Shown: in pieces, positions 5,185-32,787 of the stretch
Layout: the number at the start of each line of letters is the position of its first letter
Position numbering within the stretch: the first letter of the stretch is position 1
IMG/VR virus record: IMGVR_UViG_3300022839_000006
Coordinates: 29,896 to 93,895 of that record
From: a virus
Length of the DNA stretch: 64,000 nucleotides
Direction: 5' to 3' (one strand)
Notes under the pieces: generated by a model
The model's database searches: none
What the model saw: only the letters and a program-made list of their open reading frames with translations
Told to the model about the DNA's origin: nothing
Translations under genes and position numbers: made by a program

Positions 5185-5349
5185 TTGATACACTTTCTAA
5201 TTGTACTTGCCGCACCTATTATCGCACTTGCGGTAGGTTATTTGTATGGCTGCAATAATATCGAACCAGATTTCGATTGGAAAAATGACGATGCTCTTGA
5301 AAATAAAACTACTGAAGAAATTCAGGCAGAAATTGAAGCACTAGCATAA
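5185..5349 (+). CDS. small membrane protein, TTG start (not in ORF track, <60 aa)
   Basis: AAAGGAA RBS 7 nt before TTG; a single TM helix then an acidic tail; followed by a 12-bp-stem hairpin. Confidence 0.3.
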   Translation: MIHFLIVLAAPIIALAVGYLYGCNNIEPDFDWKNDDALENKTTEEIQAEIEALA

Positions 5350-5453
5350 TACAAAGCCAAATGGCAACAGTGTGATGTTGTTGCCATTTGAAAATCCAAG
5401 AAACAAAAAATGTTTTTATTTTGGCATGACGCCAGTGTAAGGATTGGAGCAAA

Positions 5454-6904: not shown

Positions 6905-6945
6905 GTTGTCCTCTATGTATTTTTAAGATACTTTTATACTATTTC
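6903..6945 (-). promoter_or_regulatory. copy 2 of ~45-bp late promoter/RBS cassette (TATAAAAGTATCTTAA...ATAGAGGA)
   Basis: ~90% identical to 9010-9056; in this copy the start codon position holds ACG. Confidence 0.5.
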
Positions 6946-9009: not shown

Positions 9010-9056
9010 CTTGGTTATCCTCTATGCATCTTATTAAGATACTTTTATACTATTTA
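9010..9056 (-). promoter_or_regulatory. copy 1 of ~45-bp late promoter/RBS cassette driving the tail-fibre-like gene
   Basis: Minus strand reads AAATAGTATAAAAGTATCTTAATAAGATGCATAGAGGATAACCAAGATG. Confidence 0.5.
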
Positions 9057-14970: not shown

Positions 14971-15298
14971 CAGTTTTCATGTGGCACCAAAGGAAATTAC
15001 ACCACGATCTATTATTTTCGTTGATAATGAAATGAATGAATATGATCAAGGTCGAAAAGACGTTCTTCTGGAACTGCTGACAAAGTTCAAGCCCTCACGA
15101 ACTTTACGGACATGCGTAATTACCCAGTGTGATTGTTGTGGGCGACAGCTTCACCCATTGAACACTTCAGGATATGGCACGTGTGATGCTTGTAAAATTT
15201 CACACAACTATGGTCAGGATTCGTTTGACATTCGATTGGCATATATGCTAATAAAGCGCGCAAACAGTATAACCAATTTGGAAACTGATAATAGATAA
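14930..15298 (+). CDS. hypothetical Cys-containing protein
   Basis: 122-aa ORF with GTG start overlapping the preceding small ORF; the true start may be the internal ATG. Confidence 0.4.
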   Translation: MKKPQSNIWTASHNSFHVAPKEITPRSIIFVDNEMNEYDQGRKDVLLELLTKFKPSRTLRTCVITQCDCCGRQLHPLNTSGYGTCDACKISHNYGQDSFDIRLAYMLIKRANSITNLETDNR

Positions 15299-15599: not shown

Positions 15600-15683
15600 G
15601 CCCAAGTACTCAAGTAGCTGATGTGGTCTTAGCGCCGAGTTGAAGCCTCGGAGATGTCTGTTCGATTCGGACCTTGGGCCCCA
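15600..15683 (+). tRNA. tRNA-like element (possible tRNA-Phe GAA) with an atypically long D-region
   Basis: 7-bp acceptor stem GCCCAAG/CTTGGGC then discriminator and CCA. T-arm is GTCTG-TTCGATT-CGGAC. Anticodon arm CCGAG-TTGAAGC-CTCGG has U33 and a purine at 37. The segment between acceptor and anticodon stem is ~9 nt longer than a canonical D-arm. Confidence 0.4.
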
Positions 15684-15726
15684 TATTACAACTGTCCTAT
15701 AACTTATGTACTAAAGGAGAAATAAG

Positions 15727-16173
15727 ATGATTGAGTATACAGTTAAAGTTAATGACACCGGAACTAAGTCTTGGTATCTCAACGGTAAGCTACACCGAGA
15801 AGACGGTCCTGCTGTTGAGTTGGTCAACGGTAATAAGTTCTGGTACCTTAACGATAAGCAACACCGAGAAGATGGTCCTGCTATTGAGTATGGCAATGGT
15901 GATAAGTGGTGGTACCTTAACGATGAGCAACACCGAGAAGATGGACCTGCTGTTGAGTACATCAATGGTTATAAGTCTTGGTACCTTAACGGTAGGCGAC
16001 ACCGAGAAGATGGTCCTGCTATTCAGTATAGCAATGGTAATAAGTCTTGGTACCTTAACGGTAGGGGCCTAACGGAGGCAGAACATAAAGCTGCTACTTC
16101 ACCTAAGGATACTTGTAATGGTAAAGAAGTAGTAATTGATGGTATTACTTATGTATTAAAGGAGAGTAAATAA
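15727..16173 (+). CDS. MORN-like tandem-repeat protein (4 copies of W-Y-L-N-G-x-x-H-R-E-D-G-P-A repeat), paralog 1
   Basis: AAAGGAGA RBS; internal ~72-nt periodicity; C-terminal LTEAEHKAATSPK...GKEVVIDGITY. Confidence 0.6.
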   Translation: MIEYTVKVNDTGTKSWYLNGKLHREDGPAVELVNGNKFWYLNDKQHREDGPAIEYGNGDKWWYLNDEQHREDGPAVEYINGYKSWYLNGRRHREDGPAIQYSNGNKSWYLNGRGLTEAEHKAATSPKDTCNGKEVVIDGITYVLKESK

Positions 16174-16174
16174 G

Positions 16175-16555
16175 ATGATTGAACATACAGTTAAAGTTTA
16201 TGACAATGGCACTAAGCAGTGTTACCTTAACGGTAAGCTACACCGAGAAGATGGCCCTGCTATTGAGTGGGCCAATGGTTCTAAGTGGTGGTACCTTAAC
16301 GATGAGCAACACCGAGAAGATGGACCTGCTGTTGAGTACATCAATGGTTATAAGTCTTGGTATCTCAACGGTAAGCTACACCGAGAAGGGGGACCAGCTA
16401 TTGAGCATAGCAATGGCGATAAGTATTGGTATCTTAACGGTAAGCTACTAACGGAGGCAGAACATAAAGCTGCTACTTCACCCAAGAAGAAGCCTAGTTG
16501 TAGTGGTAAAGAAGTAGTAATTGATGGTATTACTTACACCCTAAAGGAGAAGTAA
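16175..16555 (+). CDS. MORN-like tandem-repeat protein, paralog 2 (recent tandem duplicate)
   Basis: Nearly identical N-terminus MIEHTVKV, same repeat and C-terminal module, same RBS. Confidence 0.6.
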   Translation: MIEHTVKVYDNGTKQCYLNGKLHREDGPAIEWANGSKWWYLNDEQHREDGPAVEYINGYKSWYLNGKLHREGGPAIEHSNGDKYWYLNGKLLTEAEHKAATSPKKKPSCSGKEVVIDGITYTLKEK

Positions 16556-16556
16556 G

Positions 16557-16613
16557 ATGATTGAGTATACAGTTGAAGTTAGTGGCAGCGGTGCCATTGG
16601 AAGTTATAATTGA
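16557..16613 (+). pseudogene. truncated third copy of the MORN-like repeat gene (18 codons, MIEYTVEV...)
   Basis: Same AGGAGAAGTAAG RBS and start as paralog 1, then an early stop. Confidence 0.4.
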
Positions 16614-22882: not shown

Positions 22883-23281
22883 ATGAATATGTTTGAACGT
22901 GCAACACGTAGTAAATATACTTTTGCGACAAGTGTTGGCCTCATCGGTGTAACAGATCTTTGGGACCTGCCACTGACCTCACAGCGTGGTGCAAACCTGA
23001 ACGACGTAGCGAAAGAAATCAATCGTGTTTTGAAATCGCAAGACGAAGATGACTTTGTGTCCATGTCTATCAATGTGAAAAAGACACAAAACGAGTTCAA
23101 GCTCGAACTGGTTAAGTACATCATCTCCGTAAAGCAGGCAGAGAATTCAGCAAGCCTCGAGAAAAAGACCAATGCAATGCGCAAAGAGAAGTTACTTGCG
23201 TTGTTGGCTAAGAAAAACGACGATGCTCTTGAAAGCAAAACCATCGAAGAAATTCAACGGGAAATCGAAGCTCTGGCATAA
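22883..23281 (+). CDS. hypothetical protein
   Basis: 132-aa ORF, RBS AAGGATAAAAAATATG. Confidence 0.5.
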   Translation: MNMFERATRSKYTFATSVGLIGVTDLWDLPLTSQRGANLNDVAKEINRVLKSQDEDDFVSMSINVKKTQNEFKLELVKYIISVKQAENSASLEKKTNAMRKEKLLALLAKKNDDALESKTIEEIQREIEALA

Positions 23282-23289
23282 GAAAAAGA

Positions 23290-25163: not shown

Positions 25164-25739
25164 ATGAGCAGGGACATTTGGTTCTTCAGCGACCACCATT
25201 TTGGACAATCGAGTATTTTGAAGTTTACCGACAAGGACGGAAATCTTGTTCGTCCTGGCTTTGCTGATGTCGCTGAGATGGACAACTACATGATTGAAAT
25301 GTGGAACGCATCGATCAAACCAGGCGATATTGTATATCATCTTGGAGACATTGCATTTGACAAGCAAAAGTTCACTGATTCAATATTGAATCAGTTACAG
25401 GGAAGGATTCGATTGGTAGTCGGCAACCATGATGATATTAAGTTGATGTCATCGTTGCCTAAAATTCAAAAGATTTTAGAGAGTCGAAGGTTTGATGATC
25501 ATATGTTCATTGCCAGTCATAGACCATTGCACCCTCACAATCTGTGGAACCATAGAAAGATGTGCCCGTTGATTAATCTGGTCGGACACATTCACAGTAA
25601 CGATCCTCCACCTGACCAATACATAAACGTCTGTGTTGAGAGGACAGGATACAAGCCAATACACATCGACGACATTGCACAACAAGCACATATAATGATT
25701 CAAAATTTAGAGGAGGCATACAATGAGCAAATTACCTAA
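25164..25739 (+). CDS. metallophosphoesterase
   Basis: FFSDHHFGQ...HLGD...GNHD...GHIH; RBS AAGGAGAGATTATG. Confidence 0.65.
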   Translation: MSRDIWFFSDHHFGQSSILKFTDKDGNLVRPGFADVAEMDNYMIEMWNASIKPGDIVYHLGDIAFDKQKFTDSILNQLQGRIRLVVGNHDDIKLMSSLPKIQKILESRRFDDHMFIASHRPLHPHNLWNHRKMCPLINLVGHIHSNDPPPDQYINVCVERTGYKPIHIDDIAQQAHIMIQNLEEAYNEQIT

Positions 25740-26874
25740 GAATCCGCTTCCGTTTTCGGTTCCTGGTTGCTACCTTGCGGGTGGGGCGATTCTTTCCACA
25801 GTAACCAAAACAGAAATATCAGATTATGATCTTTACCCAAAGTCTAAAGAGGCGATGATCACGCTGTTCTACATTTTGCAAGAATCGAACTGCTTTGTGG
25901 TCAATTATTCGGACCGAGCGGTGACATGGAAGTGCAATGACGTTGTAAAAGACAATGGCGAGCGCGGCATCATTCAGGTGATGACGTTTGACACATTTGA
26001 AAATCCCGAAAAGATTTTTGACTTTTTCGATTTCTCTGTTTGTATGGGCGCATTTGACACAGATACGCTTGAATACCATTTTCACAAAGACTTCTGGCCT
26101 TCTGTGGCAAGCAGAACACTGTACTTCAATCCTAAGACAAAATACCCATTAAATAGTCTGACACGCGTCAGTAAGTACACGTCCAAAGGATACCACTTAC
26201 CTAAGACACAGTCGATCAAAATGTCTCTTGCTGTGATCAACTCAGGGATGCCAACATCGTGGGAAGAACTTGAAGCAGCCATTGGCGGATCTTACGGCAG
26301 ACAGATCAAAATTATGGTTACGGATAAAGAATTCTCATACGAAGCTGCATTGGAAATTCTGGGCGATCTTGTTCTTGATATCGATGTAGTGACTGAATCG
26401 TACGACAAGATTAAGGCCGAACACCTTGAGGTGAGCGTCACTGGCTCGACTGTTCCAATTCTAACAATTCCATACAGTAACAACAGCATGAATTCAAGCT
26501 CCAAAACATATAAAATAGTTAATGGCGCTGCTGTTCCTATGGACGCTGCTGAAAAGACTGCTTTGACGTTGCTCGGCGTCAATATGGAGGAAATTGACCC
26601 TAACACGATGTTTAACGGATACAAGTGGATGACACATGTAGATGGCAACACGTATGAAGGACTCTTCAACTTCAAAAGGGTTCAATACACAATGAAAGAA
26701 GAAACCGGTGAGATCACAGGACTATACAACACTCCTGAAATGGCACTTCAGCCGCCAAGTTCAGCACAAACTTCACTGTGCATGTTTTCATTCGTTGCAT
26801 CAGACATAACCAGTGCAACGTCGAGAGATTTTCACGTCAAGCGTTCCACATTTCAAGAGGTGGTCAAATGTTGA
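25723..26874 (+). CDS. hypothetical protein, possible Pol-beta-superfamily nucleotidyltransferase
   Basis: N-terminal GCYLAGGAIL followed 14 aa later by DYD resembles the GG...DxD head-domain signature; the rest is unassigned. Confidence 0.4.
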   Translation: MSKLPKNPLPFSVPGCYLAGGAILSTVTKTEISDYDLYPKSKEAMITLFYILQESNCFVVNYSDRAVTWKCNDVVKDNGERGIIQVMTFDTFENPEKIFDFFDFSVCMGAFDTDTLEYHFHKDFWPSVASRTLYFNPKTKYPLNSLTRVSKYTSKGYHLPKTQSIKMSLAVINSGMPTSWEELEAAIGGSYGRQIKIMVTDKEFSYEAALEILGDLVLDIDVVTESYDKIKAEHLEVSVTGSTVPILTIPYSNNSMNSSSKTYKIVNGAAVPMDAAEKTALTLLGVNMEEIDPNTMFNGYKWMTHVDGNTYEGLFNFKRVQYTMKEETGEITGLYNTPEMALQPPSSAQTSLCMFSFVASDITSATSRDFHVKRSTFQEVVKC

Positions 26875-27158
26875 AACTCGTAGAAATAGTCCTCCATGTT
26901 GTTAGTTTTCTCACAATGGTCTTGATTAGTCTAGCATTGTGCGGTTTGACTATCTCTGTGTTGTTGGGGATCACAATGTTCTTGACATGGACCGTGCCTG
27001 CAGGAGCGCTGTTCCATTGGGGCATTCTTAGAGGGCTGGTTGTAATATCAATAGGAGTCTCGTTGTGTTGGGCCATTTCGTCTGAAAGCAAGGAATGGGT
27101 GGACGAATCACTTGAGACATTAAAAAACGGACCAATTCAATTTTCAAAGGGAGAATAA
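26868..27158 (+). CDS. membrane protein (3 TM)
   Basis: Start overlaps the upstream stop (ATGTTGA). Confidence 0.45.
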   Translation: MLKLVEIVLHVVSFLTMVLISLALCGLTISVLLGITMFLTWTVPAGALFHWGILRGLVVISIGVSLCWAISSESKEWVDESLETLKNGPIQFSKGE

Positions 27159-27160
27159 CA

Positions 27161-27328
27161 ATGGCTACAGCAGAACAATACGCAAACTGGTGCATGGGAC
27201 TAATTCGAGGAGACGATCACATTGTTGATGATATATATTCAGCAATGTACGATGATGGTTTTATGGACGATGATCAAGAATGGACTATCGTCGATGCCGA
27301 TGCCGATGATGATGATGATGACAGCTAA
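27161..27328 (+). CDS. small highly acidic protein (55 aa)
   Basis: RBS AAAGGGAGAATAACAATG; followed by a 10-bp-stem hairpin. Confidence 0.3.
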   Translation: MATAEQYANWCMGLIRGDDHIVDDIYSAMYDDGFMDDDQEWTIVDADADDDDDDS

Positions 27329-27491
27329 GTTAAAATGTGGAGTGTCATAAAAAGCACTCCACATTACTGTTGGTTATGTATACGGACGAAGAGCCCAAGT
27401 TTGACTACAAGGAGCAAGGACTTCCTGTTGCAGATCGCACAGATCTGAAGTAAAGTCAGAGAATATAATTATTAGTTAAGGAACAAGGCAT

Positions 27492-28838
27492 ATGCACGAT
27501 ATTATCAATGCTCTGTGTGAAAACAACAGTGCAAACTACAAGCTCGGCGTTCTGAAGGAACATAAGAGCAACGAACAGCTCAAGCGTGTTTTGATGATGA
27601 CATACGACAAGGTTGCATATCGTTACTACATTACGATGAACCATTGGAACAAACCTGAGACATCTCCGTTTGTTTCCAACTCAATCCCAACATTGTCTTT
27701 AGACGATGCTCTCGACTTTCTGGAGACTAAGCTGTCCACAAGAGAGGTTACAGGCAACGCTGCGATTGAACAGATGGATGTGGTTTTTAGGTCTCTCTCT
27801 GATGAAGATCGCAGTGTAATGACGAAGGTGTTGAACCGCGATCTTCGGATTAATTGTGGACGAACACAGATTAATAAGGTGTTTCCGAGCCTGATTAATA
27901 GGCCCGTTTACATGCGCTGCGGAATCTACAACAAAGACACTGCAAAGAAGATTAATGTTGTAGGGGCCATTGTTCAGCTCAAAGCGGACGGCACGTATCG
28001 CGAGTTCGTGTGTGATGCAAGTGGCACGTCATCAAGCTCGCGATCGGGTGAAGAATATGAATATCCTGTGCACTTTGATCTAATGAAGGATTATCCAAAC
28101 GGACACTATTTTGGAGAATTGACAGTGATCAACGAAGACGGCACTGTGATGAATCGCGCTGAGGGCAATGGTCTTATCAACAGCAGTGCACCTCCTCATA
28201 GTCAAATCGTGTTCGACGTTTGGGATTACGTCACTCCCGAAGAGTATGCGACAGCTACGAAGAAAGAGAAGTGCAAGACACCATACGCCACACGATTGGC
28301 AGAGTTGCGCAAAATTCTTATTGACAATACATCTCCACAAATCAGACTGATCGAAACGCATGTTGTAAACACCATGAGCGAAGCTCTTGGACACTGTATG
28401 AAATGGATGAACGATGGACTTGAGGGTGCAATTCTAAAGGACTCGAACTCTGTGTTCCGTGACGGCACCAACCCACAACAATTGAAGTTGAAGCTGGTCA
28501 TTGATCTTGATTTGAGGATTGTAGGATTCCAAGAAGGCACTGTTGGAACGTCACGCGAAAAAACATTCGGTGCAATTGTGTTTGAGTCTGACGATGGCAA
28601 GATTAAAGGTCGAACATCAGGGTTCACAGATGCACTATTGAAAGATTTCAATTCCCGTCGTGCAGAAATGATCGGCAAGATTATTACAGTCCAATGCAAT
28701 GATATTACAAAGGGACGAGACAACGATTTTTACGCTCTCTCCCACCCACGGTTTATTGAGGTTCGTGATGATAGAACAGATACAGACACGCTCCAACGTG
28801 CTCTCGAGACCAAGAGAATGGCAATGGATCTGTCTTGA
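27492..28838 (+). CDS. ATP-dependent polynucleotide ligase (likely DNA ligase)
   Basis: Motif I KADGTYR, motif IV/V region EGAILKD...KLKLV, C-terminal OB-like region; 448 aa. Confidence 0.6.
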   Translation: MHDIINALCENNSANYKLGVLKEHKSNEQLKRVLMMTYDKVAYRYYITMNHWNKPETSPFVSNSIPTLSLDDALDFLETKLSTREVTGNAAIEQMDVVFRSLSDEDRSVMTKVLNRDLRINCGRTQINKVFPSLINRPVYMRCGIYNKDTAKKINVVGAIVQLKADGTYREFVCDASGTSSSSRSGEEYEYPVHFDLMKDYPNGHYFGELTVINEDGTVMNRAEGNGLINSSAPPHSQIVFDVWDYVTPEEYATATKKEKCKTPYATRLAELRKILIDNTSPQIRLIETHVVNTMSEALGHCMKWMNDGLEGAILKDSNSVFRDGTNPQQLKLKLVIDLDLRIVGFQEGTVGTSREKTFGAIVFESDDGKIKGRTSGFTDALLKDFNSRRAEMIGKIITVQCNDITKGRDNDFYALSHPRFIEVRDDRTDTDTLQRALETKRMAMDLS

Positions 28839-28881
28839 AAATGTCGTTGATTTACATCTTTAACTGGCGTAAGATGTAAGC

Positions 28882-29064
28882 ATGGAACAATACTTCTTGC
28901 TGTTATCCCTTGCTGTTTTAATCGTGATCTTCGTCAGGGGGACATTTATCGTGTTCAGTCAAAACTTCTTGATGGCAACAATGTTGCTCTTCGTGCTCCC
29001 CCCATTACTTTTTGTTTGGATCGTGTATGTGGGCATTTTCATGAGAACTCAAGATCCAACATAG
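28882..29064 (+). CDS. small membrane protein; its C-terminal codons are formed by repeat R1
   Basis: 60-aa ORF, two TM helices. Confidence 0.35.
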   Translation: MEQYFLLLSLAVLIVIFVRGTFIVFSQNFLMATMLLFVLPPLLFVWIVYVGIFMRTQDPT

Positions 29065-29093
29065 TAACAACATAAAGGACGAATAAAATGAAC
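29029..29093 (+). repeat. repeat units R1 (29029-29061) + R2 (29065-29093)
   Basis: R1 GTGGGCATTTTCATGAGAAYTCAAGATCCAACA recurs at 29372-29404; R2 TAACAACATAAAGGACGAATAAAATGAAC recurs at 30953-30981. Confidence 0.8.
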
Positions 29094-29219
29094 GATTTAG
29101 TATATTACATTGTCGGAAACGTGGTTTTGTTTGGATCAGCGTATGCATTTGGCACTGGTCTGCAACGTTGGTACGACAAATATGCAGAGTCATGGATGGA
29201 GCGTGACGAGAAAAATTGA
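29088..29219 (+). CDS. small membrane peptide (43 aa) started by the R2 cassette
   Basis: RBS and ATG are contained in R2. Confidence 0.3.
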   Translation: MNDLVYYIVGNVVLFGSAYAFGTGLQRWYDKYAESWMERDEKN

Positions 29220-29341
29220 TCGTGTGGCGGACCTATCCGAGAACAGGCCACAGCAGACCACTTGTACAAAAAATGTACAAGTGGCCACCAAAATCGTTTT
29301 TGAGTGTGTGGCGTACCCATTAAAGTAGGAGATTGTGAACA

Positions 29342-29569
29342 ATGACAAAAGATCTACCAACACTACCACGATGTGGGCATTTTCATGAGAATTCAAGATC
29401 CAACAACGACGTGCAAAATACGCCACCAGAAGCATATCTTGAGGGAATAAAGGCTTTGGGTCGAGTGATAAACGATTATCGTGATTGTCTGGCATTTAAA
29501 GGCTATATTCTACACGGCAGCGTCGAAAGTTCTGATCTGTACGCGAAGAAAGAGATCTTCGTACTGTGA
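29342..29569 (+). CDS. small hypothetical protein containing R1 in a different frame
   Basis: 75-aa ORF, RBS GGAGATTGTGAACAATG. Confidence 0.35.
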   Translation: MTKDLPTLPRCGHFHENSRSNNDVQNTPPEAYLEGIKALGRVINDYRDCLAFKGYILHGSVESSDLYAKKEIFVL

Positions 29570-29691
29570 AAGTCAACTGTTGACTTGGACGATCGAACCT
29601 TCATTGTGCGTTGAGAGCATGAAAGAATCACAGCTGGAACGCGGTCAAGAAACTACAAACACGTCCACAATTTTTAACAATGAGGTAAATT

Positions 29692-30156
29692 ATGAGACAA
29701 CTATTTTTAGACTGCGATGGCGTTCTTGCTGATTTTGACAAGCAGTTTGTATTGCTTGCAGGGACAACAGGTCAAACATACGAAGACGAACACGGTTCTG
29801 GAACTTTTTGGAATCTGATACAAAATTCCAAAAAGTTCTTTGAGGACATGCCTCTTATGTCCGACGCTCTTGAGCTGTATGCTGCTGTAAAACATCATCG
29901 CCCTATCATACTCACAGGATGTCCACGCGGGACCTGGTCTGTTCAGCAGAAGCTGATCTGGCGTGACAAACACTTCAAGGGCGTTCCAATGGTCACGTGC
30001 TTGTCTAGGGATAAGGTAGATTACTGTCAGCCAGGAGACGTCCTCGTCGATGATTTCTTGAAGCACAGCCAGAAGTGGATTGATGGCGGAGGAGTGTTTG
30101 TTCACCACACCAATACACCTTCGACATTGCAACAATTGAGCCAAATTGACCTTTGA
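29692..30156 (+). CDS. HAD-superfamily 5'(3')-nucleotidase-like phosphatase
   Basis: LFLDCDGVLADF motif I and downstream HAD motifs. Confidence 0.6.
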   Translation: MRQLFLDCDGVLADFDKQFVLLAGTTGQTYEDEHGSGTFWNLIQNSKKFFEDMPLMSDALELYAAVKHHRPIILTGCPRGTWSVQQKLIWRDKHFKGVPMVTCLSRDKVDYCQPGDVLVDDFLKHSQKWIDGGGVFVHHTNTPSTLQQLSQIDL

Positions 30157-30178
30157 CATGGTAGGAGAACAAAAAATA

Positions 30179-30226
30179 CTGATTGACACTCCTTGACAGA
30201 TATGCTACGTTTAATGTATAAGGAAG
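30179..30226 (+). promoter_or_regulatory. sigma70-like early promoter cassette (TTGACA-N18-TATAAG), copy 1 of 2
   Basis: ~85% identical to 44229-44276. Confidence 0.5.
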
Positions 30227-30393
30227 GGGAATCACTATGTAAACCTTCTACAGAAACGATTTCTTTGTAGAAGGTAGGCATTATGAGCGGTTCAGTGGAA
30301 ACAGTATGATAGATGAAGTGTTTTACTTGAAGAGTATGGGTTATACAGTCGAGTGGTGAAAAACTTCTTTGTGAAACAGGTTTAGGAAAAACT

Positions 30394-30648
30394 ATGAAAA
30401 TGGCTGAAAACGATTTCAACCAACTCAAAGAGATTATTATTGAAAATGATAATATCCACGGTCTAAAAACATCAGATTGGGTTGAACAAGCTAAAATTAA
30501 TGGCTGGTCTGATAAACGTATGCGGTGGGATATGGTTTGGAGTGTAGGCCGTGAAAAGCGGCAAACTTGGTTCGACAAAGTTTACCAGTATCTTGATGAC
30601 GATCACATTGATACCGCGCTTCGTAAAATTGTACAGCAAATGACTTGA
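30394..30648 (+). CDS. hypothetical protein
   Basis: 84-aa ORF, RBS AGGAAAAACTATG. Confidence 0.45.
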   Translation: MKMAENDFNQLKEIIIENDNIHGLKTSDWVEQAKINGWSDKRMRWDMVWSVGREKRQTWFDKVYQYLDDDHIDTALRKIVQQMT

Positions 30649-30975
30649 CACTATATGTTAAACGAGTTGAAAAGTTGATGATGTTATGATTCGTCCAGCA
30701 AACAATTTTTTCAATATCAGTGAGCGTGAAGGATTGAAAAATGAGTAAATTATCCTATCCTGCAAATAAACCATATGTTGCTGGATATTATGGCGTTCTA
30801 TACAACAACCCTGAAAAAGACGGCCAGGAATATCCAAATGTTTGTGGTGGAACACACATCATTTCGTGTGGCATATTCCTGGCACGGACCAACATGTCAC
30901 TGTGTTTTTCCTGAAACATGCCACAGATATTACACTACAAGTGTGCAATTATTAACAACATAAAGGACGAATAAA

Positions 30976-31455
30976 ATGAACAAATTGACATGGGCACGTG
31001 ATGAATTGCGACGTGCGGGATATAGCACAGACGATCCTGAAGACGGTCCAGACAAGTGGATCGCCGAGAATGTAATTCAACTGCTCCAAGTATTTTCGGA
31101 ACAGGGACACAGTGGCTCTTCAGCACCGTTTGCAATTAGAATTTTTGAGCAGCTTGCATCATGGAAACCGCTTACACCGCTTACAGGCAATGATGAAGAG
31201 TGGCAACATTTCGACAATGAAAGTATCAGCCAAAATATTCGCGATTCGTCAGTGTTCAAAAACATTGACGGTGTTGCATATTGGACTGAAGGTAAAGTGT
31301 TCTGGGAATGGTTTTCTTATGAAGGTGGTGAGCCCTACAAATCGTATTTTACAAATTCGGAGAGTAGTGTGGACGTTGCATTTCCGTGGTCGAGACCTGA
31401 CTCCCCCCAGTACGTTTTCAAACCAAATAGCACTTACCCAAACGAAGAGCGCTAA
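30976..31455 (+). CDS. hypothetical protein started by the second R2 cassette
   Basis: 159-aa ORF; identical 29-nt upstream/RBS/ATGAAC. Confidence 0.5.
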   Translation: MNKLTWARDELRRAGYSTDDPEDGPDKWIAENVIQLLQVFSEQGHSGSSAPFAIRIFEQLASWKPLTPLTGNDEEWQHFDNESISQNIRDSSVFKNIDGVAYWTEGKVFWEWFSYEGGEPYKSYFTNSESSVDVAFPWSRPDSPQYVFKPNSTYPNEER

Positions 31456-32441: not shown

Positions 32442-32787
32442 TCTTGAACCTTGGCATTGCAATGATTGTCGCGTATATTCCACTCTTCTATTGGATGATA
32501 CACGAGGCTGTTAGGCAGAAAAAAGATTTGAAAAAGATTCGACGACAACCTCGTGTTGAGGTGATCACCTCGACATATTATTCCTGACGGAGATGCTAAT
32601 TTGTGCTGTACAAACAACACAAAGAATATTACGATGCAATCTGATCGGCACGTTCTCTTATCTGGAAGATTTCACAACTGAAACATCTTGTGAAATCTTC
32701 CAGACTGGCATCGACGATGTCGTTGTATTTGATTCTGTTGGACAGACTGCTTTTCGAACAAAAAAGACCACACAATAGAGGTGCAAA

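What the first reader, a model, noticed from the sequence alone, without database searches (positions are those of the whole stretch)
29029..30981. Mosaic short repeat cassettes R1 and R2 used in different reading frames
R1 (33 nt, GTGGGCATTTTCATGAGAAYTCAAGATCCAACA) occurs at 29029-29061 and 29372-29404, where it encodes ...GIFMRTQDPT* versus ...CGHFHENSRSNN. R2 (29 nt, TAACAACATAAAGGACGAATAAAATGAAC) follows R1 at 29065-29093 and recurs at 30953-30981. Each time it supplies the RBS and ATGAAC start of a different gene. The combination pattern (R1+R2, R1 alone, R2 alone) suggests modular recombination of small expression cassettes. This recalls T4 PeSL elements but uses different sequences.
Basis: seen in the sequence. 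Interest (0 to 1): 0.55.

Follow-up and report, generated by a model that had tools for sequence, protein, structure and literature searches.

The report
Short copied patches, not mobile cassettes
Two short repeats in the accessory-gene region of a T4-like phage are real, but they are recent copy-and-paste patches from one gene junction onto two nearby genes, most likely made by replication template switching, and are not mobile expression cassettes.

Summary
R1 (35 nt, 34/35 identical) lies at 29027-29061 and 29371-29405. R2 (29 nt, exact) lies at 29065-29093 and 30953-30981. Neither is expected by chance, and R1 is read in two different frames.

The window is a T4-like phage, and the repeats sit in a variable accessory-gene region after the DNA ligase gene. 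Close relatives show which copies are older.
- The contiguous R1-TAG-R2 block, at the junction of a 60-aa and a 43-aa membrane-protein gene, is native. A relative about 88% identical has a diverged ortholog there.
- R1 copy 2 exists only in the window lineage. It replaces 12 codons with 15 near the start of a 75-aa gene.
- R2 copy 2 is missing even from a 99%-identical strain. That strain differs at 10 of 17 positions there, after 4.9 kb with no difference. The patch overwrites the ribosome-binding region of a Tad3-family (anti-Thoeris) gene.

The junctions carry only microhomology. The best explanation is ectopic templated replacement, as in T4 "templated mutations".

PeSL-type cassettes are rejected. 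The repeats have no promoter and no stem-loop. There are two copies each in about 81 kb. They bound no indel. This is a natural instance of a known mechanism, of modest interest.

The parts
29027..29061 (+). R1 copy 1. This is the native donor: the last 11 codons of the 60-aa membrane-protein ORF.
   Evidence: A diverged ortholog (6/35 mismatches) sits at the same place in the L001-type relatives.
29062..29064 (+). TAG stop codon of the 60-aa ORF. It joins R1 and R2 into one 67-nt donor block.
29065..29093 (+). R2 copy 1. This is the native donor: the Shine-Dalgarno sequence AAGGA plus ATG AAC of the 43-aa ORF.
   Evidence: The L001-type ortholog reads TAACAGCATAAAGGGTGAAT-AAATGGGT. The sequence is identical in the 99% strain L009.
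29371..29405 (+). R1 copy 2. This is a derived patch inside the 75-aa ORF, codons about 10-22, read in a different frame.
   Evidence: Absent from L001 and L003 and from 7 protein outgroups. It shares 6 of 6 window-lineage-specific variants of copy 1. Its one private C>T change, at 29392, is synonymous in the 75-aa ORF frame.
30953..30981 (+). R2 copy 2. This is a derived patch covering the translation-initiation region and first two codons of the Tad3-family gene. The changed bases are 30956-30972.
   Evidence: The 99%-identical strains L009 and L010, and the 88% relative L001, all carry CATAGGAAGTTAACAAAATGAAC here.
28882..29064 (+). 60-aa hydrophobic ORF, whose end is R1 copy 1.
   Evidence: Conserved as a 61-aa ORF in L001, with conservative hydrophobic substitutions.
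29088..29219 (+). 43-aa small membrane-protein ORF, started by R2 copy 1.
29342..29569 (+). 75-aa ORF of unknown function, the recipient of R1 copy 2.
30976..31455 (+). Tad3-family gene (type I Thoeris inhibitor), whose initiation region is R2 copy 2.
   Evidence: Pfam PF25185, E = 1.3e-36, 125 bits against a cutoff of 27.
30741..30963 (+). Twice-frameshifted remnant of a 77-aa gene that is intact in L001. It lies directly upstream of R2 copy 2.

Best explanation
Proposed events:
- R1 copy 2 and R2 copy 2 are footprints of two separate, recent, non-reciprocal events.
- In each, a short stretch was overwritten in place with sequence copied from the same 67-nt donor block. That block is the stop region of the 60-aa ORF plus the initiation region of the 43-aa ORF, at 29027-29093.
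- R1 replaced about 19 nt with 28 nt, 344 nt downstream of the donor.
- R2 replaced about 17 nt, 1,888 nt downstream of the donor.

Proposed mechanism:
- The most likely mechanism is ectopic template switching during replication or repair synthesis. The polymerase leaves its template at a microhomology, copies the donor, and returns at a second microhomology.
- This is the route described for 'templated mutations' in phage T4.

Consequences:
- The 75-aa protein gained a new 15-residue N-proximal segment, read from R1 in another frame.
- The Tad3-family gene acquired the 43-aa gene's ribosome-binding region.

Shown versus inferred:
- Shown here: the copies are derived, the direction of copying, the patch boundaries, and the microhomologies.
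- Inferred: the enzymology, and any selective benefit.
For: R2 copy 2 is derived and came from site 1:
- The window and the 99% strain L009 have no difference from 25563 to 30441. They then differ in 10 of 17 columns at 30956-30972.
- Every one of those changes makes the window identical to site 1.
- L009, L010 and the 88% relative L001 share the other state.
- Of 11 multi-difference clusters between the two strains, only this one has a long (29-nt) ectopic match. The others give 11-13 nt, which is chance level.
- Site 1 is unchanged between the strains, so the event was non-reciprocal.

R1 copy 2 is derived:
- The L001-type 75-aa ortholog reads RGEISIGENCVE where the window reads CGHFHENSRSNNDVQ.
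- The outgroup P0125 shares EI and VENT with the L001-type, not with the window.
- Copy 2 carries 6 of 6 window-lineage-specific variants of copy 1.

Junctions:
- R2 is flanked by TA(G/T)TAAC on the left and AAAATGAAC (9 nt) on the right. Donor and the pre-conversion recipient were a significant imperfect direct repeat (54 of 2000 shuffles).
- R1 is flanked by only GTGGG on the left and AAC on the right.

Mechanistic precedent:
- A review of T4 replication describes sequential strand switching that copies an imperfect repeat elsewhere and then returns. It notes the process is influenced by genes 32, 41 and uvsX. This is PMC3016281, citing Schultz, Carver and Drake 2006.

Same-region context:
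- The same 2 kb carries other microhomology-type rearrangements: a roughly 160-nt deletion at AG(T/G)CCACA, and a 54-nt deletion in L009.
Against: - Only two divergence tiers of relatives exist. There is no nucleotide-level outgroup for site 1.
- ATGAAC at site 1 (ATGGGT in L001) may itself have come from site 2. The history may therefore be bidirectional.
- L009's site-2 segment also carries 3 extra SNPs and a deletion. It could be an imported allele, which would shift the timing of the event but not its direction.
- Use of one donor block twice is unexplained by a random process.
- For R1, the flanking microhomology is very short and there is no significant pre-existing similarity.
- The enzymology cannot be told from sequence.
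- About 180 kb of the 264-kb genome was not scanned.
Confidence: 0.75

Rival explanations
1. R1 and R2 are small mobile expression or regulatory cassettes, PeSL-like. They would recombine with one another to shuffle gene modules.
For: - R2 contains a stop codon, a Shine-Dalgarno sequence and a start codon, like the 3' part of a PeSL.
- The region is hyperplastic. Relatives with 66-69% ligase identity have unrelated genes after the ligase.
Against: - No sigma-70-like promoter lies in or next to R1 or R2. Promoter-like hits in the region do not exceed the shuffled expectation.
- There is no significant stem-loop (z = +0.2 to +0.8).
- There are only two copies each in about 81 kb, against about 50 PeSLs per genome.
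- None of the four indels among the relatives is bounded by R1 or R2.
- Gene order is unchanged where the copies appear.
Confidence: 0.04
2. The patches arose by copying, but they persist because they are functional. One version is that R2 is a better, unstructured initiation region that restored or raised Tad3 translation after the upstream 77-aa gene was frameshifted. Another is that R2 is a shared operator that co-regulates the 43-aa and Tad3 genes. This rival concerns maintenance, not origin, so it is compatible with the best explanation.
For: - The ancestral site-2 region can form a small UUAACU/AGUUAA hairpin around the Shine-Dalgarno sequence. That hairpin is absent after conversion.
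- The AGGA-to-ATG spacing changes from 10 nt to 8 nt (read).
- In L001, the upstream gene's stop codon lies 5 nt before the Tad3 ATG, which would allow translational coupling. That gene is frameshifted in the window lineage.
- The R1 patch keeps the reading frame (+9 nt), and its only later change is synonymous.
Against: - The hairpin difference is small (-8.4 versus -6.2 kcal/mol), and neither fold is significant.
- Strains with the ancestral region keep an intact Tad3 gene.
- No expression data exist.
- Frame preservation has a one-in-three chance of arising anyway.
Confidence: 0.15
3. The patches were imported by ordinary homologous recombination from an unsampled related phage that already carried these sequences. 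They would not have been made inside this genome.
For: - The segment around site 2 is the most variable spot between the two 99% strains. It holds a deletion, 3 SNPs and the patch within 140 nt, which could mark an exchanged segment.
- Contigs of co-occurring variants break in this region.
Against: - Import does not explain why the patch is 29/29 identical to a sequence 1.9 kb away in the same genome. An ectopic copy is still needed somewhere in the history.
- R1 copy 2 carries all 6 variants specific to this lineage's copy 1.
- No exact match to R1 or R2 exists in IMG/VR or in the genome collection.
Confidence: 0.05
4. The repeats are a metagenome assembly artefact, that is, chimeric joins at short repeats.
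For: - All the sequences are metagenomic assemblies.
- Several contigs end near 29208.
Against: - The same structure is recovered by different assemblers and from different samples: ENA megahit, JGI, and Logan.
- The patches are collinear replacements with intact flanks, not joins.
- The repeats are shorter than the assemblers' k-mers.
Confidence: 0.01

Closest known systems
T4 'templated mutations': ectopic strand switching to imperfect direct repeats (Schultz, Carver and Drake 2006, as summarised in PMC3016281)
   Same: - A clustered multi-base replacement whose new sequence equals a donor elsewhere in the same genome.
- The donor is unchanged.
- Donor and recipient are imperfect repeats, or share flanking microhomology.
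- The host of the event is a T4-type phage, with the same replication and recombination style.
   Different: - These events are seen in natural strains rather than in selected laboratory mutants.
- One patch (R1) has almost no pre-existing similarity and adds 9 nt.
- One donor block served twice.
- The targets are a translation-initiation region and a coding segment read in a new frame.
- Dependence on gp32, gp41 and UvsX is untested.
PeSL promoter-early stem-loop cassettes of T4-type phages (Arbiol et al. 2010, PMC2839356; Comeau et al. 2014, PMC4122927)
   Same: - Short repeated intergenic sequence in a hyperplastic region of a T4-like genome.
- R2 ends with a Shine-Dalgarno sequence and a start codon, as PeSLs do.
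   Different: - No promoter and no stem-loop.
- Two copies, not about 50.
- No associated indel or gene swap.
- R1 lies within coding sequence.
- A true PeSL-like element (promoter plus 12-bp hairpin) does exist nearby, at 30193-30274, and is unrelated to R1 and R2.
Short-tract ectopic gene conversion / concerted evolution of dispersed repeats
   Same: Non-reciprocal homogenisation of two dispersed sequences within one genome.
   Different: The flanking identity is only 3-9 nt. From general knowledge, that is far below the homology normally needed for recombinase-mediated conversion. The tracts are only 17-35 nt.
Template-switch mutations creating protein novelty (for example in yeast, PMC8604942)
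   Same: A multi-nucleotide templated change rewrites a stretch of coding sequence in one step.
   Different: The yeast cases involve inverted-repeat arms. Here the donor is a direct, distant sequence read in a different frame.

Membership tests
PeSL cassette | Strong sigma-70-like early promoter (-35 and -10 boxes, with an AT-rich upstream region) | tested here: not met
   No promoter-like site overlaps or adjoins R1 or R2. The region has 12 hits against 11.0 +/- 3.4 expected.
PeSL cassette | Stable stem-loop acting as a terminator or attenuator | tested here: not met
   Folds of all three sites give z = +0.83, +0.65 and +0.18. No terminator-like site lies at R1 or R2.
PeSL cassette | Many copies per genome (about 50), concentrated in hyperplastic regions | tested here: not met
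   Two copies of each in the 64-kb window, allowing up to 3 mismatches. None in about 17 kb of extra flanks, allowing up to 6-8 mismatches. About 180 kb of the genome was not scanned.
PeSL cassette | Copies bound insertions, deletions or replacements between close relatives | tested here: not met
   The indels lie at 29243/29244, at the 3' end of the 43-aa ORF, at about 30150-30680, and at 30833-30886. None abuts R1 or R2.
PeSL cassette | 3' end carries the Shine-Dalgarno sequence and start codon of the downstream gene | tested here: met
   This holds for R2 only: AAGGA-N8-ATG at both sites. R1 has none.
Templated mutation (ectopic strand switch) | Clustered multi-nucleotide change relative to the ancestral allele | tested here: met
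   10 of 17 columns differ, after 4.9 kb with no difference. For R1, 28 nt replace 19 nt within flanks of about 85% identity.
Templated mutation (ectopic strand switch) | The new sequence is identical to a donor elsewhere in the same genome, and the donor is unchanged | tested here: met
   29/29 and 34/35 identity to 29027-29093. The donor is identical in the window and in L009.
Templated mutation (ectopic strand switch) | Donor and recipient are imperfect repeats, or share microhomology at both switch points | tested here: met
   R2: TA(G/T)TAAC on the left and 9-nt AAAATGAAC on the right, with pre-existing similarity reached by 54 of 2000 shuffles. R1: only GTGGG and AAC, with no significant similarity. 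This is therefore met for R2 and only weakly for R1.
Templated mutation (ectopic strand switch) | Arises during replication or replication repair, with frequency modulated by gp32, gp41 and UvsX | not testable with these tools
   This needs genetics. It is cited only from PMC3016281.
Diversity-generating retroelement | Nearby reverse transcriptase, and template/variable repeats that differ at adenines | tested here: not met
   No RVT family appears among the precomputed Pfam hits for 21 kb around the site. The only difference between copies is C>T.

The most novel reading that the evidence does not exclude
The junction of the 60-aa and 43-aa genes could be a preferred, recurrently used donor. 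Short-patch 'initiation-region swapping' would then be a selected way for T4-like jumbo phages to retune expression of counter-defence genes such as Tad3, and to rewrite N-termini of accessory proteins, rather than a random by-product of replication.
Probability: 0.1. Interest if true: 0.6.

Novelty: new member of a known kind. Interest (0 to 1): 0.3.

Why it matters
This shows, at strain resolution in wild phage populations, that ectopic templated replacement contributes to the evolution of the variable accessory regions of T4-like phages. That process was previously known mainly from selected laboratory T4 mutants.

In single steps it swapped the ribosome-binding region of an anti-Thoeris (Tad3-family) gene and rewrote 15 residues of a small protein in a new reading frame.

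It is also a caution for annotation. Short exact repeats at gene boundaries in phage genomes need not be mobile or regulatory elements. Comparing strains can separate donor from recipient.

The new direct repeats (35 nt, 344 nt apart; 29 nt, 1,888 nt apart) also create substrates for future deletions of the genes between them.

Tried and rejected
Searches that found nothing:
- A near-identity search of 50,697 GenBank phage records. The best protein-level relatives are the Vibrio phage Va1 group, at 45% ligase identity, too distant to use.
- Exact R1 and R2 patterns in IMG/VR and in 185,579 bacterial and archaeal genomes.

Relatives that added little:
- The metagenome scan returned only a duplicate of the L001-type (L003) and one distant phage (L004).
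- Word-based protein searches for the 75-aa and 43-aa proteins returned only the two known lineages. A full HMM scan was needed to find 7 distant homologues of the 75-aa protein.
- No outgroup was found for the 43-aa gene. It therefore stays unresolved whether ATGAAC at site 1 is ancestral or was copied from site 2.
- Relatives at 66-69% ligase identity (L021-L023) lack the 60-aa, 43-aa, 75-aa and Tad3 genes near the ligase. They give no nucleotide outgroup.
- Searches of IMG/VR with the Tad3 protein and with the 75-aa alignment failed.

Functional and structural tests that were negative:
- Rfam, at E <= 1.
- Promoter and terminator scans, which did not exceed the shuffled expectation.
- RNA folds of the repeats.

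Ideas considered and rejected:
- R1 copies as target-site-like repeats flanking an inserted module. The L001-type has the same genes in the same order without R1 copy 2.
- A diversity-generating retroelement. There is no reverse transcriptase and no adenine bias.
- Assembly chimera. Independent assemblies agree.
Full report
OBSERVATION

Both repeats are real.
- R1 matches twice, even allowing 3 mismatches, at 29029-29061 and 29373-29405. No shuffle gave a match.
- Extended, R1 is 35 nt, 29027-29061 versus 29371-29405, identical at 34 of 35 positions.
- R2 is 29/29 identical at 29065-29093 and 30953-30981. None is expected by chance.
- At the first site, R1, the stop codon TAG and R2 form one contiguous 67-nt block.
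- The frames are as described. The 60-aa ORF 28882-29064 ends VGIFMRTQDPT*. The 75-aa ORF 29342-29569 reads RCGHFHENSRSNND through R1.
- R2 supplies AAGGA-N8-ATGAAC to the 43-aa ORF 29088-29219 and to the 159-aa ORF 30976-31455.

CONTEXT

The window is part of a T4-like phage known only from metagenomes.
- It is 100% identical to an ENA contig of 107 kb (L008). A 99% strain sits on a JGI contig of 263,791 nt (L009).
- T4-type portal, sheath, gp23 and terminase genes lie further along.
- No GenBank phage is close. The best ligase match is 45%, to the Vibrio phage Va1 group.

The repeats lie in a run of small accessory genes. In order these are:
- DNA ligase, 27492-28838
- a 60-aa ORF and a 43-aa ORF (both hydrophobic)
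- a 75-aa ORF of unknown function
- an NT5C-type deoxyribonucleotidase, 29692-30156
- an 84-aa ORF
- a frameshifted gene remnant
- a Tad3-family gene, 30976-31455 (Pfam PF25185 'Type I Thoeris inhibitor', E = 1.3e-36)
- a Band_7 gene

Phages with 66-69% ligase identity carry unrelated genes after the ligase, so this is a hyperplastic region.

COMPARATIVE EVIDENCE

Two tiers of relatives were recovered.
- Tier 1: L009 and L010 (two samples), 99% identical to the window over 19.4 kb.
- Tier 2: L001, L003, L005, L006 and L007 (the 'L001-type'), 85-92% identical and collinear.

R2 COPY 2 IS DERIVED

- The window and L009 show no difference from 25563 to 30441, then one SNP.
- Next comes a 54-nt deletion plus 3 SNPs in L009.
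- Then 10 differing columns fall within 30956-30972, which is exactly R2 copy 2.
- L009 and L010 read TATTAACTAGCATAGGAAGTTAACAAAATGAAC. L001 and L003 read TATTAACCAACATAGGAAGTTAACAAAATGAAC. The window, L008 and L013 read TATTAACAACATAAAGGACGAATAAAATGAAC.
- Two separate lineages thus share the GGAAGTTAAC state, and the window state is new.
- Every change makes the window identical to site 1. Site 1 is identical in the window and L009, and it has a recognisable ortholog in L001 (TAACAGCATAAAGGGTGAAT-AAATGGGT).
- The direction was therefore site 1 to site 2, and the event was non-reciprocal.
- Of the 11 multi-difference clusters between the two strains, only this one has a long ectopic match in the genome: 29 nt, against 11-13 nt for the others.

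R1 COPY 2 IS DERIVED

- All window-type assemblies carry it, and the L001-type does not.
- The L001-type 75-aa ortholog reads PRRGEISIGENCVENTPPEAY. The window reads PRCGHFHENSRSNNDVQNTPPEAY.
- A full HMM scan found seven distant homologues. In their alignment the L001-type shares EI and VENT with P0125, and the window's segment resembles nothing.
- The L001-type site-1 ortholog differs from window copy 1 at 6 of 35 positions. Copy 2 has the window state at all six.
- Copy 2 was therefore made after the two lineages split.
- Its single private change, C>T at 29392, is synonymous in the 75-aa frame (AAC to AAT, Asn).

JUNCTIONS AND MECHANISM

For R2:
- Donor and recipient were both initiation regions, and already formed an imperfect direct repeat.
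- They shared TA(G/T)TAAC on the left and the 9-nt AAAATGAAC on the right.
- This pre-existing similarity was reached by only 54 of 2000 shuffles.

For R1:
- The only shared bases are GTGGG on the left and AAC on the right.
- There is no significant wider similarity.
- About 19 nt were replaced by 28 nt, a net gain of 9 nt that preserves the frame.

These short flanks, the tiny tracts and the unchanged donor fit ectopic template switching better than recombinase-mediated conversion. The point about the homology that recombinases require rests on general knowledge, not on a test here.

A review of T4 replication describes this process. [quoted passage not shown] Their frequency is altered by mutations in genes 32, 41 and uvsX (PMC3016281, citing Schultz, Carver and Drake 2006). 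The enzymology in this phage is inferred, not shown.

The same 2 kb holds other rearrangements of this kind.
- A roughly 160-nt deletion at an AG(T/G)CCACA microhomology removed the 5' part of an 87-aa ORF that is intact in L001.
- A 54-nt deletion occurred in L009.
- A hairpin in the window is perfect where L001 has only an imperfect inverted repeat.

THE CASSETTE / PeSL READING

PeSLs are defined by a strong sigma-70-like promoter plus a stable stem-loop. There are about 50 per genome, and they sit at the borders of indels between close relatives (PMC2839356). R1 and R2 fail each test.
- No promoter-like site lies at them.
- They show no significant fold.
- No Rfam family matches.
- There are two copies each in the window plus about 17 kb of extra flanks.
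- They have no exact match in IMG/VR or in the bacterial and archaeal genome collection.
- None of the four indels abuts them.

Only R2's Shine-Dalgarno sequence and start codon resemble the 3' end of a PeSL.

A real PeSL-like element does exist nearby.
- It has TTGACAGATATGCTA...TATAAG at 30193-30229, followed by a 12-bp hairpin at 30243-30274 (z = -3.9).
- It sits at the start of a roughly 530-nt segment, carrying an 84-aa ORF, that the L001-type lacks.

CONSEQUENCES

- The 75-aa protein has 15 new residues in place of 12.
- The Tad3-family gene now uses the 43-aa gene's leader.
- The ancestral leader can form a weak UUAACU/AGUUAA hairpin around its Shine-Dalgarno sequence, and this is lost. 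The AGGA-to-ATG spacing shortens from 10 nt to 8 nt (read).
- In L001, the upstream 77-aa gene ends 5 nt before the Tad3 start codon, which would allow translational coupling. That gene is frameshifted twice in the window lineage.
- A benefit from a stronger, independent leader is therefore plausible but untested.
- The new direct repeats could also seed deletions. No deletion variant was seen.

RIVALS

- Import of the patches from an unsampled relative does not remove the need for an ectopic copy. It also conflicts with R1 copy 2 carrying this lineage's own variants.
- An assembly artefact is excluded, because different assemblers and samples agree.
- Selection for function is compatible with the proposed origin and stays open.

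LIMITS

- About 180 kb of the genome could not be scanned.
- Site 1 has no nucleotide outgroup. ATGAAC there (ATGGGT in L001) may itself have been copied from site 2, which would make the exchange two-way.
- It is unexplained why one 67-nt block served as donor twice.

VERDICT

This is a clear natural example of a known mutational mechanism, and of modest interest.

Noticed in passing
window 29258-29284: There is a perfect 11-bp hairpin, CCACTTGTACA-AAAAA-TGTACAAGTGG (z = -5.05). It lies inside the remnant of an 87-aa ORF. In L001 that ORF is intact and the same stretch is only an imperfect inverted repeat. This may be quasi-palindrome correction, or a newly made terminator.
   Followed up: partly
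window 30150-30680: A segment of about 530 nt is absent from the L001-type. It starts with a PeSL-like element: the promoter-like TTGACAGATATGCTA...TATAAG at 30193-30229, plus a 12-bp hairpin at 30243-30274 (z = -3.9). It also carries an 84-aa ORF (phrog_9817, unknown function). Similar TTGACNKATATGCTA motifs occur at 15236, 32584 and 44243.
   Followed up: partly
window 29243/29244 versus L001 6529-6686: A deletion of about 160 nt in the window lineage lies at an AG(T/G)CCACA microhomology. It removes the start of an 87-aa ORF. Three L001-type contigs (L005, L006, L007) all end at about window position 29208, which suggests co-occurring variants break the assemblies there.
   Followed up: partly
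window 30741-30963; L001 7879-8358: Gene decay is reciprocal between the lineages. The 77-aa gene is intact in L001 but has two 1-nt deletions in the window lineage, and a further 54-nt deletion in L009 and L010. The Tad3-family gene is intact in the window lineage but has two in-frame stops and a frameshift in L001 and L003.
   Followed up: partly
window 25723-26874: The precomputed table lists Pfam PF26128 (Gad2, an anti-Gabija protein) for this 383-aa ORF. My own Pfam scan found no family at E <= 0.01. With Tad3 nearby, this stretch may be a counter-defence gene cluster.
   Followed up: no
window 5280-5356 and 23212-23288: A 77-nt direct repeat, 81% identical, covers the 3' ends and stop codons of two genes 18 kb apart. 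This may reflect paralogous C-termini.
   Followed up: no
window 6920-6944 and 9031-9055: A 25-nt repeat, TT(T/A)TTAAGATACTTTTATACTATTT (24/25), occurs at two intergenic-looking sites 2.1 kb apart. It may be a promoter or terminator motif.
   Followed up: no
window 15608-16591: A tRNA-Phe gene is followed by three tandem paralogous small genes with similar leaders (repeat families D1 and D2).
   Followed up: no
L001 9546-9570 versus window 32606-32630: L001 has AAACAACATAAAGGACACAACAATG in front of a 79-aa ORF. This shares the 15-mer AACAACATAAAGGAC with the window's R2. The window's ortholog is degraded (AACAACACAAAGAAT) and the ORF is lost. R2-like leaders may form a small family in this phage group.
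   Followed up: partly
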